Origin: the human T2T-CHM13v2.0 reference genome, Homo sapiens
Strand: one strand, 5' to 3'
Assembly (NCBI RefSeq): GCF_009914755.1
Contig: NC_060927.1
DNA: 64,000 nucleotides
The position numbers were made by a program, and so were the translations under genes. This document shows positions 32,718-47,821 of the stretch, piece after piece (within the stretch, counting starts at the first letter, position 1; each line of letters opens with the position of its first letter). Below the pieces are notes generated by a model. The model saw only the letters and a list, made by a program, of their open reading frames with translations. It was not told the DNA's origin and did not search any database.

Positions 32718-32962
32718 TGAAGAGAGAGGTTAAAGATTAACCCCCCCACTCTAATCACATGTACTGTCTATAAATCTCAATCTATCAAGACCCTTTCACG
32801 TGGACCCCTTGGAGTTGTAAGCCCTTAAAAGGGTCTGGAGCTCTTTCTTCGGAGAGCGTCATTCTTGAGATGCAAGTCTGCTGACGCTCCCAGCCAAATA
32901 AAGCCTCTTCCTTCTTTAACATGGCATCTGAGGGGTTTTTGTCTGTGGCTCATCCTGCTGCA
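32718..32962 (+). mobile_element. 5' LTR (LTR2-family, probably LTR2C-like), 245-bp U3-deleted variant
   Basis: TGAAGAGAGAGGTTAAAGATTA...CCTGCTGCA; AATAAA at 32897-32902; followed by the PBS. Confidence 0.88.
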
Positions 32963-32967
32963 TTTCT

Positions 32968-32985
32968 TGGTTCCCTGACCAGGAA
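32968..32985 (+). promoter_or_regulatory. Primer-binding site complementary to tRNA-Glu (HERV-E group)
   Basis: TGGTTCCCTGACCAGGAA versus TGGTTCCCTGACCGGGAA, the reverse complement of the tRNA-Glu(CTC) 3' end (17/18). Confidence 0.88.
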
Positions 32986-33465
32986 GTGAGGTGATTAACG
33001 GACAGTTGAGGCAGCCCCTTAGGTGACTTACACCTGCCCTGCAGAGCATCCCTGCAGTGAACTCCAGCCAGCTTGAGCGATGGGGATCCTGAGACCGCTC
33101 CTGGGTAGGTATTTGTCCTGGTAGAACTCCTCGTCAGAGTGGTGCATGGCAGGCCCCCGCAGATTAACAATGCAATGTCTGAACACTGGGAAGGAACCAT
33201 TGCTTGGAGTCCAGACATCTGGAATACAGAAGGACCGGTCCTGGGAACTTGCCCACTGCATTTGAGTGGAAGCGTGGCCTGATCACCCACTGTGTGCCCT
33301 TATGGGCACTTTGGTCTCAGTATTGATTTTGATTTGGCTTGACCTGTTTGCAAAAAGGAAAGTGAAAGTGAGTGAGTGCTTGAGTTTTAGATGTGCGAGG
33401 TGAGCGAGTGACCTCTTTACCCTTTCCTTCTTGTGGTGTGAGTGTTGTTTTGTCTCGGGAGGAAA

Positions 33466-43574: not shown

Positions 43575-46500
43575 TCCCCAACATCTGCTCCATGTTTAGC
43601 TCCACGAACTTCAGACTTAAAAAGCATCACTGGCTCCTGACCAGGATTCCAGCTCCATGAACCTCAAACTAGAACACCAGCCCGGCTTCTCTGCAGGTCT
43701 CCAGCTCCAAAACCTAAGACATCAGTGGCAGTACAAACTCATCCCAGGGGCTCCAGCTCCAGGACCCTCAGACTTGAACCGCAGCACCAACTCTTCCCTG
43801 GATCTCCATCTCCATGACCCTCAGACTTAAACAGCAGCAGCACCAGTTCATCTGTGAATCTCCAGCTCCACAACCCTCCAACTAGAAACACACCAGCTCC
43901 TCCCTGGGTCTCCAGCTGCACGACCCTCAAACTACAACATCAGCTCCTCCCCGGGTCTCTAACTCCATGACCCTCAAACTAAAACAACACTGCTCACCCC
44001 TGGGACTCCAGATCCACAAACCTTACACTAGAACAGAAACACCAGCTCCTCCACAGATCTCCAGCTTTACAATCTAAGACATTAGTGGCAGCACCATCTC
44101 CTCCTGGGGTCTCAAGCTCCAGGACCCTCAGACCTGAATCGCAGCACCAGCTCTTCCCCGGATCTCCAGCTTGACGACCTTCAGACTTAAACAACAAAAG
44201 AATCAGCTCCTCCCTGGGTCTCCAGCACCACAACCCACAAACTAGAAGAACACCACTCCCCCATGGATCTCCAGATCCATGACCCTCACACTAGAACACC
44301 AACACCTGCTCCTCCGTGGGTCTCCAGATCCACGAACCTCACACTGGAACACCAACACTGGCTCCTCTGCGGGTCTTCAGCTCCACAACCTAAGACATCA
44401 GTGGCAGCATTGGCTCCTCCCATGGATTCCAGCTCCAAGACCCTCACATTTAAACTGCAAGACCACCTTCTCCCTGTATCTCCAGCTGCACAACCCTCAA
44501 ACTAGAACATCAGCTCCTCCAATGGTCTTCAGCTGCACGAAACTCAAACTAGAAAAACAACAGCTCCTCCCTGGGTCTCCAGCTCTGCAACCATCAAACT
44601 AGAACACCATCAGCTCCTCTCCAGGTCTCCAGCTCCACAGCTCTCAAATAAGAGCAACATCAGCTTCTCCCTGGGTCTCCAGCTGCACAACCCTCAAACT
44701 AGAAAAACACCAGCTCCTGCCTGGGTCTCCAAGCTCCATGACCCTCAAACTCGAACAACATCAGCTCCTCCCCACGTCTCCAGCTGCATGACCCTCAATC
44801 TAGAAAAACAGCAGCAAACTAATAAAACCTCCCCGGGTGTTTCTAGTTTGAGGGTCATGCAGCTGGACACCTGGGAAGGAGCTGATTTTAATCTAGTTTG
44901 AGCATCGTGGAGCTGGACACTCAGGGAGGAGCAGATGTTTTTCTATTGTGAGGATTTTGGAGCTGGAGATCCAGGGTGGAGCAGTGTTGTTATAGTTTGA
45001 GGTCATCTGAGGGTCAGCTGCATGACCCTTAAGCCAGAAAAACACCATTTTCCCCCTGGGACTCCAGCTCCACAAACCTCACACTAAAACAGCAACACCG
45101 GCTCCTTCGCAGGTCTCCAGCTTTACAACCTAAGACATTCGTGGCAGCACCATCTCCTCCTGGGGTCTCAAGCTCCAGGACCCTCAGACTTGAACCGCAG
45201 CACCAGCTCTTCCCCGGATCTCCAGCTCGATGACCTTCAGACTTAAACAACAGAAGGATCGACTCCTCCCTGGGTCTCCAGCACCACGACCCTCAACTAG
45301 AACACCATGAGCTCCTCCCTGGGTCTCCAGCACCACAACCCAAAAACTAGAAGAACGTCACTCCCCCATGGATCTCCAGATCCACACCCTCACACTAGAA
45401 CACCAACACCGGCTCCTCTGTGGGTCTTCTGCTGCACAATCTAAGACATCAGTGGCAGCATTGACTCCTCCCATAGATTCCAGCTCCAGGACCCTCAGAT
45501 TTGAACCACAAGACCACCTCCTTCTTGGATCTCCAGCTGCACAACACTCAAACTAGAACAACATCAGCTCCACCCCGGGTCTCCAGCTCCATTACACTCA
45601 AATTAGAACAACATCAGCTCCTCTTTGAGTCTCCAGCTGAAAGATCGTAAAACAAGGACAACATCAGCTCCTTCCCGAGTCTTCAGCTGCAGGGCACTCA
45701 AACTAGAACATCAGCTCCTCCCCCCGTCTTCAGCTGCACGACCTTCAGACTAGAACATCAGCAACTCTCCTGGTCTCCAGCTGCAGGATACTCATATTAG
45801 AAAAACGCCAGCTCCTCCCGGGTTCTACAGCTGCATGACCCTCAAACTAAAAAACACCCGCTGCTCCCCAGGTCTCCAGCTGCATGAACCTCAAACTAGA
45901 ACAACATCAGCTCCTCCCCGGGTCTTCAGTTGCCTGACCCTCAAACTAGAACAACATCAGCTCCTCTCCAAGTCCCCAGATCACGGCCCTCAAACTAGAA
46001 CATTAGCTCCTTCCCGAGTCTTCAGCTGCACCACCCTCAACCTAGAACATCGGCTCCTCTCTGGGTCTCTAGCTGCTGGACACTCATACTAGAAAAACAC
46101 AAGCTCCTCCCAGGTTCTACTGTTGCACGACCCTCAAACTAAAAAACAACCGCTCCTCCTCAGGTCTCCAGGTGCATGAACCTCAAACCAGAACAACATC
46201 AGCTCATCCCCGGGTCTTAAGCTCATGGCCCTCAAACTAGAACATCAGCTCCTCCCTGAGTCTTAAGCTGCACAACCCTCAATTGAAAGCATCAGCTCTT
46301 CTCCAGGTCTTCAGCTGCAGGACACTCACACTAGAAAAATGCAAGCTCCTCATGGGTTCTACAGCTGTATGACCCTCAAACTAAAGAAACACCAGCTCCT
46401 CTCTGGGTCTCCAGCTCCATGACCCTCAAACTAGAACCAAATCAGCTCCTCTTTGCATCTCCAGTCGCATGGCTCTCAAACTAGAACATCAGCTCCTCTC

Positions 46501-47360
46501 CTGGTCTCCAGCTGTAGGACACTCATACTAGAAAAACGCCAGCTCTTCCCCGGTTCTACAGCTGCATGAATCTCAAACTAAAGAAACACCCGCTCCTCTC
46601 CATGTCTCCAGCTGCATGAACCTCAAATCAGAACAACACCAGCTCCTCTCTGGGTCTCCAGCTCCATGACCCTTAAACTAGAACCACATCAGCTCCTCTC
46701 TGGGTCTCCAGCTGAAAGACCCTCAACAAGAACAACATCAGCTCCCCTCCAAGTCTTCAGCTGCACAACCCTCAAACTAGAACAACATCAGCTCCTCTCC
46801 AGGTCTCCAGCTGCAGGACACTCATACTAGAAAAACACCAGCTCCTCCCGGGTTCTACAGCTGCATGACCCTCAAACTAAAAAACACCCGCTGCTCCCCA
46901 GGTCTCCAGCTACATGAACCTCAATCTAGAACAATACCTGCTCCTCTGTGGATCTCAAGCTCCATGATCCTCAAACTAGAATAACATCAGCTCCTCTCCA
47001 GGTCTCCAGCTGCAGTATCCTCAAACGAGAACATCAGCTTCTCCCTGAGTCTTCAGCGGCACGACCCTCAAACTAGAACATCAGCTCTTCTCCAGGTCTC
47101 CAGCTGCAGGACACTCATACTAGAAAAATACCAGCTCCCCCTGGGTTCTACAGCTGCACGGCCATCAAACTAAAGAAACACCAGCTGCTCTCTGGGTCTC
47201 CAGCTGCAGGACCCTCAAACCAGAACATCAGATTCTCCCGGGTTCTGCAGCTGCCCGACCCTCAAACTAAAGAAACTCCTGCTCCTCCCAGGGTCTATAG
47301 CTGCATGACCCTCAAACTAAAAAACACCAGCTCCTCCCCAGATCTCCAGCTGCAACCCTC
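43575..47360 (+). repeat. Diverged tandem array of ~47-53-bp units, consensus about CTCCAGCTGCACGACCCTCAAACTAGAACAACATCAGCTCCTCCCCGGGT
   Basis: Recurring CTCCAGCT / CCTCAAACTAGAA / CAGCTCCTC motifs about every 50 bp over ~3.8 kb; an inverted block at ~44837-45016. Confidence 0.93.
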
Positions 47361-47581
47361 CTATTGCTCCTTTGTTTGTTACCCATATTTCTCCAACTTC
47401 TAAGAAGTTTTGTTACTACCTTGGTTCATCAGAAAACTTCAGCACAAATGTATTACATGAATGTCTTGTAATACACAAGTGTATTACATGAATCACTGTC
47501 GATCTGTCTTGCAGAAAGACCTGGGTAGTGAAGATGAGAGTGAGACCTCCCACTAGTGAATAAGGTTCTCAAATGGGGGAA
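47361..47581 (+). pseudogene. env: Second HERV-E env 3' tail plus polypurine tract
   Basis: Homologous to ~39260-39427 (TGTTACCCATATTTCT...GAAGACCTGGGT...CTCCCACTAGTGA...GGTTCTCAAA-TGGGGGAA) but with different indels. Confidence 0.9.
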
Positions 47582-47821
47582 TGAAGAGAGAGGTTAAAGA
47601 TTAGCCCCCCTCTAATCACATATGCTATCTCTGAATGTCAATCTATCACAACCCTTTCACGTGAACCCCTTAGAGTTGTAAGTTCTTAAAAGGGCCAGGA
47701 ACTCTTTCTTCAGAGAGCTCAGTTCTTGACATGCAAGTCTGCTGATGCTCCTGGCCAAATAAAGCCACTTCCTTCTTAACCCGGTGTCTGAGTGGTTTTG
47801 TCTGTGGCTAGTCCTCCTACA
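47582..47821 (+). mobile_element. Terminal 3' LTR, 240-bp U3-deleted variant matching the 5' LTR
   Basis: TGAAGAGAGAGGTTAAAGATTA...CCTCCTACA; AATAAA at 47758-47763. Confidence 0.9.

What the first reader, a model, noticed from the sequence alone, without database searches (positions are those of the whole stretch)
32718..47821. Three-LTR HERV-E element carrying ~7.6 kb of host DNA: candidate fossil of retroviral read-through transduction
Seen: 5'LTR-PBS(Glu)-gag-pol-env-PPT-LTR-[L1, Alus, unique DNA, satellite]-env tail-PPT-LTR. One 4-bp TSD (CCAC) flanks the whole 15,104 bp, inside an MST LTR whose halves join exactly and keep their own 5-bp TSD (TGATT). The internal LTR is followed by GTCC, not CCAC, so it is not the partner of the 5' LTR. 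Established: gammaretroviral integrases make 4-bp TSDs, and acutely transforming retroviruses capture host sequence when a read-through RNA is co-packaged with a second genome and RT switches template. Inference: RT copied U3/PPT/env tail from one HERV-E RNA, jumped into the cellular tail of a read-through RNA from another provirus, and the product integrated here. Alternative: one-sided DNA double-strand-break repair of a resident provirus from a paralogous locus. 15 kb is large for packaging unless the satellite expanded later.
Basis: partly seen in the sequence, partly recalled or inferred. Interest (0 to 1): 0.92.

Follow-up and report, generated by a model that had tools for sequence, protein, structure and literature searches.

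The report
Three-LTR HERV-E carrying a paralog's flank
An ancient human endogenous retrovirus on chromosome 3 holds a third, internal LTR followed by 7.6 kb of DNA copied from beside a related retrovirus at another locus, but the sequence alone cannot say whether the copy was made from RNA or from DNA.

Summary
The anatomy is real. A 15,104-bp element (32718-47821) reads 5'LTR, PBS(Glu), gag-pro-pol, env remnant, PPT, middle LTR, 7,579 bp of foreign DNA, env tail, PPT, 3'LTR. It lies in a MaLR LTR whose halves rejoin exactly around one 4-bp duplication, CCAC.

The outer LTRs are true partners. Of 13 family LTRs aligned, only these two share a ~110-bp U3 deletion. The middle LTR is the long form.

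The source lineage exists. At chr5:26.32 Mb and chr3q29 the same long LTR is solo, inside an L1 5'UTR, flanked by GTCC|LTR|GTCC, and followed by the same L1/Alu/50-bp-satellite flank (8-10% diverged). Homology to the window starts at the first LTR base.

The "unique" DNA is not unique. It belongs to a segmental-duplication family, and four lineages of it form an unresolved polytomy.

The satellite was already about 4 kb when copied, so an RNA genome would have been about 14.9 kb.

Capture and integration are the same age within error. No poly(A), intron loss or second copy marks an RNA route.

I lean to DNA-level, one-ended templated repair from a paralogous provirus (0.55). Read-through transduction by reverse transcriptase stays open (0.3). 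The orthologous site in monkeys would decide.

The parts
32461..32717 (+). Left half of the MaLR (MST-like) LTR that was the integration target; its own 5-bp flank TGATT lies at 32456-32460
   Evidence: Aligns to intact MaLR copies up to 32708-32721; TGATT read
32714..32717 (+). Left copy of the 4-bp target-site duplication CCAC
   Evidence: Intact MaLR copies carry one CC[G/A]C here
32718..32962 (+). 5' LTR, short form (TG...CA), with a ~110-bp U3 deletion shared only with the 3' LTR
32968..32985 (+). Primer-binding site, complementary to tRNA-Glu
   Evidence: 17 of 18 bases match a tRNA-Glu(TTC) gene's 3' end plus CCA
33700..38496 (+). gag-pro-pol, broken by many stops and frameshifts
   Evidence: ORF fragments; Pfam Gag_p30, RVT_1, RT_RNaseH_2, rve, MLVIN_C
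38561..39415 (+). env remnant: an N-terminal SU piece (38561-39004), then the TM membrane-anchor and tail region (about 39222-39415); most of env is missing
   Evidence: the tail aligns to other HERV-E env tails
39416..39427 (+). Polypurine tract, copy 1 (AAAGTGGGGGAA)
   Evidence: Read; conserved in the alignment
39428..39786 (+). Middle LTR, long form; complete (TG...CA); donor type
   Evidence: Homology to chr5 and chr3q29 begins at its first base; it groups with those solo LTRs by the extra ~110 bp and by shared sites
39787..39790 (+). GTCC: one copy of the donor provirus's own target-site duplication
   Evidence: chr5 and chr3q29 read GTCC|LTR|GTCC; 3 of 4 uninterrupted L1 5'UTR copies have a single GTCC here and the fourth (chr2) reads GTCA
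39787..41626 (+). Old L1 5'UTR/ORF1 fragment holding two Alus (40101-40716)
   Evidence: colinear with chr5 and chr3q29
41627..43589 (+). 5'-truncated Alu, an L1 ORF2 3' piece and the so-called unique DNA: a member of a segmental-duplication family
   Evidence: Copies at 84-92% identity on chr8, chr5, chr20, chr6, chr2, chr7, chr9, 3q29 and 5p15
43590..47362 (+). Satellite of 50-bp period with an inverted block at about 44836-45006; it ends about 300 bp short of the array's natural end
47360..47365 (+). Non-homologous junction between satellite and env tail; at most a few bases of microhomology; no poly(A)
47363..47569 (+). env tail, copy 2 (resident or helper type); unusually diverged; holds a 31-bp internal duplication
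47571..47581 (+). Polypurine tract, copy 2
   Evidence: Read; aligned
47582..47821 (+). 3' LTR, short form, partner of the 5' LTR
47822..47825 (+). Right copy of the target-site duplication CCAC
47822..47969 (+). Right half of the MaLR LTR, followed by TGATT at 47970-47974

Best explanation
A HERV-E-type provirus with a private short-LTR pair integrated by integrase into a MaLR LTR, making the CCAC duplication. That step is shown.

At about the same epoch its 3' region acquired a DNA copy of the 3' end of a second, paralogous provirus together with 7.6 kb of that provirus's downstream flank. The second provirus sat in an L1 5'UTR inside a segment that was then being duplicated around the genome. 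That the sequence came from that lineage is shown.

The route I think most likely is inferred. A break or stalled fork in the resident env tail (at the position now 47363) let the left end invade the homologous env/PPT/LTR of the paralog. DNA synthesis ran through its LTR and out into the flank, and stopped inside the 50-bp satellite. The new strand was then joined to the other broken end with little or no homology. This duplicates env tail, PPT and LTR around the insert and leaves the original TSD untouched.

The donor provirus later collapsed to the solo LTR now seen at chr5:26.32 Mb and chr3q29.
For: Direction and source (shown):
- chr5 and chr3q29 carry GTCC|long LTR|GTCC inside a continuous L1 5'UTR. 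The window has only the LTR plus the downstream half.
- Homology starts at LTR base 1 and runs colinearly for 4.4 kb into the satellite.

The outer LTRs are a pair:
- 2 of 13 LTRs share the ~110-bp deletion and an A at LTR base 4.
- They also share 3 derived substitutions in 219 columns.

DNA-level copying of this very segment happened at the same epoch:
- chr5 and chr3q29 are homologous from 2.7 kb upstream of the solo LTR to more than 2.4 kb past the array.
- chr8 has the right-hand part only.
- Window, chr8, chr5 and the 3q29 clade form an unresolved polytomy with end branches of 0.034-0.048.

The size argues against virion passage:
- The array architecture (a plus-strand block of 1.1-1.8 kb, an inverted block of 170-270 bp, then a plus-strand block of 2.0-2.9 kb) is shared by window, chr5, chr8 and chr6. 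The composite was therefore about 15.1 kb from the start, against about 6.8-7.1 kb for proviruses of this subfamily.

No RNA signature was found:
- No poly(A) at the junction.
- No gap over 86 bp against the donors.
- There are 9 AATAAA and 4 ATTAAA hexamers in sense in the flank.
- The donor LTRs keep AATAAA.

Precedents seen as search listings and abstracts only:
- Spread of the K111 HERV-K provirus (PMC4425911, PMC3759726; the role of its flanks is recalled).
- Extensive non-allelic gene conversion among LTRs (PMC4921805).
Against: The product is also exactly what read-through plus one reverse-transcriptase jump would give. No feature found here is specific to a DNA route.

Capture and integration are the same age within error, which the RNA route requires and the DNA route only allows. 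Polarised private changes in 219 LTR columns are 9 (5' LTR), 11 (3' LTR) and 8 (middle LTR). The window's private rate in the flank is 145 of 3355 columns (4.3%).

A copied tract of at least 8.1 kb from another chromosome is long for ectopic repair (recalled knowledge, not tested).

Both present donor copies are solo LTRs. So the donor must have been a provirus at capture and have been reduced afterwards, once or twice.

Packaging of long RNA is not excluded: HIV-1 packages 16-17-kb RNAs (PMC3605237, passages read).
Confidence: 0.55

Rival explanations
1. Read-through transduction by reverse transcriptase. The donor provirus in the L1 5'UTR was transcribed past its 3' LTR for at least 7.6 kb. 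That RNA was co-packaged with a second HERV-E RNA carrying the short U3. Minus-strand synthesis copied R-U3-PPT and 216 nt of env tail from the second RNA, then jumped non-homologously into the satellite of the read-through RNA and ran on to its PBS. The about 15-kb DNA integrated here and made the CCAC duplication.
For: - Every structural prediction is met: a complete internal LTR contiguous with the donor's 3' flank and its GTCC.
- The outer LTRs share a private U3 deletion.
- The flank-to-env junction is non-homologous or of microhomology only.
- One 4-bp TSD bounds the whole.
- Middle-LTR and outer-LTR private changes are equal within error (8 against 9 and 11 in 219 columns), as simultaneous origin requires.
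- The two env tails are not copies of each other: 0 shared-derived sites, 3 and 19 private.
- Precedents for reverse-transcriptase jumps in this group: Harlequin mosaics, which include an internal LTR8 (PMC4724089, passages), and LTR-mediated retroposition by microsimilarity switches across animals including mammals (PMC5131818, passages).
- Long RNAs can be packaged by HIV-1 (PMC3605237).
Against: - The RNA would be about 14.9 kb, roughly twice this subfamily's genome. The satellite was already full-length.
- A packaging limit of about 2 kb above wild type has been proposed. That lengthened MLV genomes replicate poorly is known to me only from the title of Shin et al. 2000, cited in PMC3605237.
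- The transcript would have had to pass 13 sense poly(A) hexamers. The donor LTRs keep AATAAA; the AATAAG in the middle LTR is private.
- There is no poly(A) tract, no intron-like loss and no further copy of the composite. Only the window itself matched across the junction among the 40 scored of 1,020 candidates.
- The flank segment demonstrably moved at the DNA level at the same time.
Confidence: 0.3
2. Read-through into a downstream LTR at a donor locus that is now lost. A second, 5'-truncated HERV-E (env tail-PPT-short LTR) already lay in the satellite downstream of the donor provirus. One RNA ran from the donor's 5' LTR to that downstream LTR and was reverse-transcribed by the ordinary two jumps, with no non-homologous switch.
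For: This model gives the observed order and identical outer LTRs without a rare recombination. It rests on logic only; no call supports it directly.
Against: - Neither surviving donor copy has an env tail or LTR after the array. Both have the natural array end and its downstream sequence.
- No other locus holds the satellite-env junction.
- The size and poly(A) objections apply as before.
- It merely moves the unexplained junction to another place.
Confidence: 0.05
3. Not one event: an assembly error, or two independent insertions (a provirus plus a separate truncated copy) that only look like a unit.
For: None from the calls. It is kept only because read-level support could not be examined here.
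Against: - The MaLR halves rejoin exactly around one CCAC.
- Only the outer LTRs share the private deletion.
- The middle LTR carries another locus's TSD and flank.
- A RefSeq lncRNA model has an exon spanning 43600-49568, across the satellite, env tail, 3' LTR and MaLR (hub annotation).
Confidence: 0.03

Closest known systems
Products of the Swain-Coffin transduction pathway (read-through RNA plus non-homologous reverse-transcriptase recombination), as in acutely transforming retroviruses
   Same: The order is provirus, complete internal LTR, donor flank, then a 3' viral piece with PPT and LTR, all bounded by a single integrase-type TSD. The right junction is non-homologous.
   Different: The captured DNA is 7.6 kb of repeats with no gene. 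The whole donor provirus is retained instead of being partly replaced. The total is about 15 kb. No RNA mark (intron loss, poly(A)) is present and there is no sign of further spread. The model itself is recalled; I saw it only as a citation in PMC3605237 and PMC5131818.
Harlequin and other mosaic HERV-E recombinants (PMC4724089, passages read)
   Same: The HERV-E backbone and LTR2-type ends, foreign sequence that includes an internal LTR, and an origin attributed to co-packaging and polymerase jumps.
   Different: Harlequin's inserts are pieces of other retroviruses and the mosaic multiplied: 68 chains matched Harlequin best over 17-20 of 20 segments. Here the insert is non-viral flank with an identifiable genomic source, and the composite is single-copy.
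HERV-K(HML-2) K111 spread, and non-allelic gene conversion among LTRs (PMC4425911, PMC3759726, PMC4921805; search listings and abstracts only)
   Same: DNA-level copying of proviral sequence between non-allelic sites; that K111 moved together with adjacent host sequence is recalled. The chr5 and 3q29 copies here are of that kind.
   Different: Those cases copy a provirus with its flanks to a new place. Here a donor's LTR and one flank were written into another provirus, which kept its own TSD.
LTR-mediated retroposition (PMC5131818, passages read)
   Same: Host sequence lies inside an LTR element with short microsimilarity at the switch point, and the mechanism is reported in mammals too.
   Different: Those inserts are processed mRNAs that replace internal retroelement sequence. 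Here unprocessed genomic flank, attached to a complete LTR, is added.
Tandem three-LTR proviruses from unequal LTR recombination (recalled; PMC11899658 for plants, search listing only)
   Same: Three LTRs and one TSD.
   Different: In those, both inter-LTR segments are proviral interiors and the LTRs are of one origin. Here the second segment is foreign and the middle LTR carries another locus's TSD.

Membership tests
HERV-E (class I, gammaretrovirus-like ERV) | Primer-binding site complementary to the 3' end of tRNA-Glu | tested here: met
   Window 32968-32985 matches 17 of 18 bases of the complement of a tRNA-Glu(TTC) gene (found by ARAGORN in L056) plus CCA
HERV-E (class I, gammaretrovirus-like ERV) | Gammaretroviral gag-pro-pol domain set | tested here: met
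   Gag_p30 (E 2e-24) and MLVIN_C (E 3.9e-16), plus weaker RVT_1, RT_RNaseH_2 and rve, in 6 of 8 frames scanned; all frames are broken
HERV-E (class I, gammaretrovirus-like ERV) | LTR of the LTR2 group by a repeat library (Repbase/Dfam) | not testable with these tools
   No repeat library is held. Indirect evidence only: canonical copies match the R-U5 part at 85-88%, and the LTR resembles the LTR2B primers printed in PMC1950553. The subfamily is not assigned.
HERV-E (class I, gammaretrovirus-like ERV) | 4-bp target-site duplication | tested here: met
   CCAC here; GTCC at chr5 and chr3q29; ATTC and ATAC at two further solo LTRs read in the alignment
Retroviral read-through transduction product | A complete internal LTR contiguous with the 3' flank of an identifiable donor integration site | tested here: met
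   The donor lineage has GTCC|LTR|GTCC in an L1 5'UTR; the window has LTR|GTCC plus the same flank
Retroviral read-through transduction product | A second, non-homologous junction from flank back into the viral 3' region, with the whole bounded by one TSD | tested here: met
   Junction at 47360-47365; CCAC duplication. A DNA route gives the same result.
Retroviral read-through transduction product | A mark of passage through RNA (poly(A) remnant, intron loss) | tested here: not met
   No A-tract at the junction. No gap over 86 bp against the donors across 3.8 kb. The 473-bp intron of the predicted lncRNA (43127-43599, hub annotation) is retained.
Retroviral read-through transduction product | A genome size that a virion can carry | tested here: inconclusive
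   About 14.9 kb at origin. A limit near wild type plus 2 kb has been proposed, yet 16-17 kb is packaged by HIV-1 (PMC3605237).
DNA-level ectopic templated repair or gene conversion with capture of flank | One junction hidden in homology with a paralog; the other non-homologous; the resident TSD preserved | tested here: met
   The RNA route gives the same result.
DNA-level ectopic templated repair or gene conversion with capture of flank | The resident element existed without the insert beforehand | not testable with these tools
   This needs orthologous loci of other primates, and none are held here. Dating gives equal ages within error.
DNA-level ectopic templated repair or gene conversion with capture of flank | Independent evidence that the donor segment moved as DNA | tested here: met
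   chr5 and 3q29 share at least 13.5 kb including sequence upstream of the LTR. chr8 and others share only the right-hand part. The tree is a polytomy.

The most novel reading that the evidence does not exclude
This is a germline fossil of retroviral 3' transduction in a primate. A HERV-E virion would have packaged a read-through RNA of about 15 kb from a provirus in an L1 5'UTR, recombined it with a second genome by one non-homologous jump, and integrated the product. The donor site is still identifiable by its own TSD. That would be the first-step intermediate of the oncogene-capture pathway, caught in a genome, and evidence that an ancient gammaretrovirus could carry about twice its genome length.
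Probability: 0.3. Interest if true: 0.85.

Novelty: new variant of a known kind. Interest (0 to 1): 0.6.

Why it matters
Both the recipient and the donor lineage of a provirus-plus-flank capture are identified to the base, each marked by its own 4-bp duplication. That makes an old question directly testable: do endogenous retroviruses move host flank through virions, or is such mosaicism made by DNA repair?

A look at the orthologous site in Old and New World monkeys would settle it. If the route was RNA, the locus shows the first step of transduction and a very large packaged genome. If it was DNA, it is a clean, dated example of long-tract ectopic repair between dispersed proviruses, inside a segment that seeded several segmental duplications.

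Tried and rejected
1. A defective poly(A) signal in the donor as the cause of read-through. Rejected: both donor solo LTRs keep AATAAA, and only the window's middle LTR has AATAAG.

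2. A later satellite expansion to ease the size problem. Rejected: window, chr5, chr8 and chr6 share the array's two-block-plus-inverted-block layout and a 3.6-4.3 kb length; chr20 (about 5.1 kb) and chr3q (about 6.2 kb) have longer arrays.

3. Splice-like deletions in the captured flank. None: the largest gap against the donors is 86 bp, in an A-rich spacer between two Alus.

4. Further copies of the composite. None: only the window itself matched across the satellite-env junction, among the 40 scored of 1,020 candidates. The scoring cap means a weak copy could be missed.

5. The two env tails as a local duplication, which would allow a solo-LTR donor. Rejected: 0 shared-derived sites against 3 and 19 private ones. 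The middle LTR is also donor-type from base 4 on, so the donor still had proviral sequence upstream of its LTR.

6. Raw LTR pairwise distances for dating. Too noisy and star-like: 20-39 differences per about 230 columns among all 13 LTRs. I replaced them by polarised private counts. The apparent excess of sites shared by the 5' and middle LTRs (5) is mostly CpG-type parallel change.

7. The excess of private changes in env tail copy 2 (19), densest in the first 80 bp after the junction. It stays unexplained. There is no one-strand G-to-A bias (7 G>A, 6 C>T, 5 A>G).

8. A lineage test of the proviral interior (does it go with the outer or the middle LTR type?).

9. Dead ends. Table S1 of PMC4724089, which may list and classify this locus, is an .xls that could not be read. 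One paper search failed on syntax and was not repeated. Searches found no description of this locus or of a three-LTR HERV-E carrying foreign flank; that is five full-text searches, not proof of absence.

Full report
**What is there**

Self-comparison of 31500-49000 finds three copies of one LTR and two copies of the env tail that precedes it. It also finds a long array of about 50-bp units.

BLAST of the 5' LTR region places the copies at 32718-32962, 39550-39786 and 47582-47821, at 84-85% identity. Reading the sequence and aligning it with ten other LTRs of the family shows that the middle LTR really starts at 39428. It is the family's normal long form of 359 bp.

The two outer LTRs lack about 110 bp of U3 just after their first 12 bases. 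Of the 13 LTRs aligned, only these two have that deletion, and only these two have an A at LTR base 4. They are therefore a true pair, made from one U3 template.

The provirus features are as follows.
- The PBS (32968-32985) matches 17 of 18 bases of the complement of a tRNA-Glu(TTC) gene's 3' end plus CCA. I found that gene in the same genome by a pattern search and confirmed it with ARAGORN.
- The interior holds broken frames for Gag_p30, RT, RNase H, integrase core and the MLV-type integrase C-terminal domain.
- Most of env is missing. An N-terminal SU piece and the TM tail remain.

**The target site**

A search of the genome with the left flank gave 40 other MaLR LTR copies. I compared 11 of them with both flanks and aligned 6.

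Intact copies read CTTCC[G/A]CCATGATT across the site. The window reads ...CTTCCAC|TG(5' LTR) and (3' LTR)CA|CCACCATGATT. The halves therefore rejoin exactly around a single CCAC.

The MaLR LTR is itself flanked by TGATT on both sides (read). Its alignments begin at 32458-32474 and end at 47957-47968.

So all 15,104 bp lie inside one integrase-type 4-bp duplication.

**Where the middle LTR and its flank came from**

The genome in which the window lies can be searched. This comes from 53 matches among the 40 scored of 80 candidates.

A search with 39300-43700 showed that two places match from query base 129 onward, which is window 39428, the first base of the middle LTR. These are chr5:26,324,430 (88%) and chr3:198,421,028-198,424,869 (87%).

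I fetched those loci and three others and compared them.
- At chr5 and 3q29 the LTR is solo.
- It is preceded by ...CATGGTCC and followed by GTCCCAGTG..., which is a 4-bp duplication GTCC.
- The two loci share their upstream flank with each other but not with the window.
- Four uninterrupted copies of the same old L1 5'UTR (chr1, chr7, chr2, chr4) read straight through that point; three carry one GTCC there and the chr2 copy reads GTCA.

So a provirus of the long-LTR type integrated into an L1 5'UTR in the ancestor of the chr5 and 3q29 loci. The window holds a copy of that provirus's 3' LTR, one copy of its TSD and its downstream flank. The direction of transfer is therefore from that lineage to the window.

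**What the flank is**

From 39787 the flank consists of:
- the L1 5'UTR/ORF1 fragment holding two Alus (to 41626);
- a 5'-truncated Alu;
- a piece of L1 ORF2;
- about 1.5 kb with no family I could name;
- a (CT)n run;
- the 50-bp satellite.

chr8, chr20 and chr6 share only the part from 41627/41723 onward, and there the Alu is full-length with a different upstream sequence.

A maximum-likelihood tree of 41871-43207 for 8 copies puts chr20 and chr6 outside. It leaves the window, chr8, chr5 and a tight 3q29 clade as an unresolved polytomy, with end branches of 0.034-0.048 (rows used: all 8 copies I had that span the region; chr2 was left out because it is rearranged there).

chr5 and 3q29 are homologous from 2.7 kb upstream of the solo LTR to more than 2.4 kb beyond the array. 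So this segment was being copied as DNA, with various end points, at the very time the window received its copy.

**Size at origin**

The arrays of window, chr5, chr8 and chr6 all have the same layout:
- a plus-strand block of 1.1-1.8 kb;
- an inverted block of 170-270 bp;
- a plus-strand block of 2.0-2.9 kb.

Total lengths are 3.6-4.3 kb. In the paralogs the array ends in a few divergent units, followed by a shared sequence with an AATAAA about 55 bp on. The window's array lacks roughly the last 300 bp and runs instead into the env tail.

The array was thus already full-size, and the composite was about 15.1 kb when formed. An RNA genome (R to R) would be about 14.9 kb (the 5' LTR length printed there as 246 should read 245).

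Two other proviruses of this LTR subfamily span about 6.8 kb between their LTR matches. The provirus part here is 7,069 bp.

**The right-hand junction**

Five other HERV-E env tails were aligned with the two in the window. Copy 2 becomes recognisably env at about 47363-47377. Satellite identity runs to 47360-47365.

The overlap is a few ambiguous bases at most. There is no A-tract.

The two env tails differ at 25 of 168 sites and by two indels. They share no derived site. Copy 1 has 3 private changes and copy 2 has 19.

So they are not a local duplication. Since the middle LTR is donor-type from its fourth base, the donor must still have had proviral sequence upstream of its LTR when it was copied.

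The excess of changes in copy 2 is densest next to the junction, with 14 in the first 80 bp. It has no one-strand bias. I cannot explain it.

**Timing**

In 3,355 flank columns present in all three copies:
- private substitutions are 145 (window), 123 (chr5) and 159 (3q29);
- pairwise distances are 8.4%, 9.5% and 8.8%, a three-way split with no resolvable order.

In 219 LTR columns polarised against eight other LTRs:
- the 5', 3' and middle LTRs have 9, 11 and 8 private changes;
- the outer pair shares 3.

Integration and capture are therefore equally old within wide error. My rough reading is that capture falls within the first 40% of the element's residence time.

With recalled primate neutral rates of about 1-1.5 x 10^-9 per site per year, 4-5% per lineage means roughly 30-45 million years. 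That figure is an inference.

**Mechanism**

Two routes give exactly this structure.

*(a) Reverse transcription.* A read-through RNA of the donor provirus is co-packaged with a second genome bearing the short U3. One non-homologous jump from the second genome's env tail into the satellite follows, and the product integrates.

*(b) DNA repair or replication.* A break or stalled fork in the env tail of a resident short-LTR provirus lets the left end invade the paralogous provirus. Synthesis runs through its LTR and 7.6 kb of flank, and the strand is then joined to the other end without homology. Template-switch or circle-integration variants give the same product.

Evidence that bears on the choice:
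- Against (a): the 14.9-kb size; 9 AATAAA and 4 ATTAAA hexamers in sense along the flank; intact AATAAA in both donor LTRs; no poly(A), no intron-like loss and no second copy.
- For (b): the same segment's DNA-level copying at that epoch.
- For (a): the equal ages, which it requires; and the record of reverse-transcriptase-made mosaics in this very group, namely Harlequin with an internal LTR8 (PMC4724089, passages) and microsimilarity-guided capture in LTR elements generally (PMC5131818, passages).

Size is a penalty, not a bar. PMC3605237 (passages) notes the proposed limit of about 2 kb above wild type, but also shows HIV-1 packaging 16-17-kb RNAs.

I put (b) at 0.55 and (a) at 0.3. A variant of (a) through a lost tandem donor gets 0.05, and artefact or coincidence 0.03. 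The rest is unassigned.

**What is known and what is new**

I found no paper on this locus or on a three-LTR HERV-E with foreign flank in five full-text searches. The table that might list the locus (Table S1 of PMC4724089) could not be read.

The kinds of process are known: retroviral transduction, ectopic recombination and gene conversion among HERVs, and the K111 spread.

What is unusual is that both parties are identified to the base, each by its own TSD. A single cross-species comparison can therefore tell the two routes apart.

Noticed in passing
window 41627-47362; paralogs at C8:69.75 Mb, C5:26.33 Mb, C20:49.57-50.27 Mb (5 places), C6:151.25 Mb, C7:57.46 Mb, C2:242.5 Mb, C9:149.0 Mb, C3:198.36-200.37 Mb (4 places), C5:0.28 and 1.53 Mb: The block of Alu, L1 3' piece, about 1.5 kb of unnamed sequence and the 50-bp satellite is a dispersed duplication family with at least ten loci at 79-92% identity. 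Several copies lie near chromosome ends. From recalled coordinates, the 3q29 and 5p15.33 copies seem to lie in the SDHA/SDHAP duplications; I did not test this.
   Followed up: partly
window 42332-42399; C5:1527675-1528006, C5:281456-281724: A 67-bp stretch that is single-copy in the window is tandemly repeated at least five times in the two 5p15 paralogs.
   Followed up: no
window 44836-45006 and the matching blocks in L010-L011 (chr5), L018 (chr8) and L023 (chr6): Every copy of the satellite array holds one short inverted block of its own units at a similar distance from the array start. This old internal inversion serves as a landmark for array homology.
   Followed up: partly
paralogs just past the array end (chr5 local 26930-26950; the same place at chr8, chr6 and 3q29): An AATAAA followed by a T/GT-rich run lies about 55 bp after the natural array end in all four paralogs. 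The predicted lncRNA in the window splices 43126 to 43600 into the array (hub annotation). The array may once have been the terminal exon of a transcription unit.
   Followed up: no
C6:102398544-102405341 and C2:52427360-52434170: Two proviruses of the same long-LTR subfamily span only about 6.8 kb. They run from an N-terminal SU piece almost directly into the last ~60 bp before the 3' LTR, which is a different env deletion from the window's.
   Followed up: partly
window 47363-47440: The env tail next to the satellite junction carries 14 differences from the family majority in its first 80 bp. The next ~110 bp carry 9, and env tail copy 1 has 3 private changes over its whole length. The cause is unknown.
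   Followed up: partly
L055 (C1:7461138) and C19:19878973: Two genomic sites carry the tRNA-Glu 3'-end motif with T instead of C. That variant would pair perfectly (18 of 18) with the window's PBS. ARAGORN found no tRNA gene in L055.
   Followed up: no
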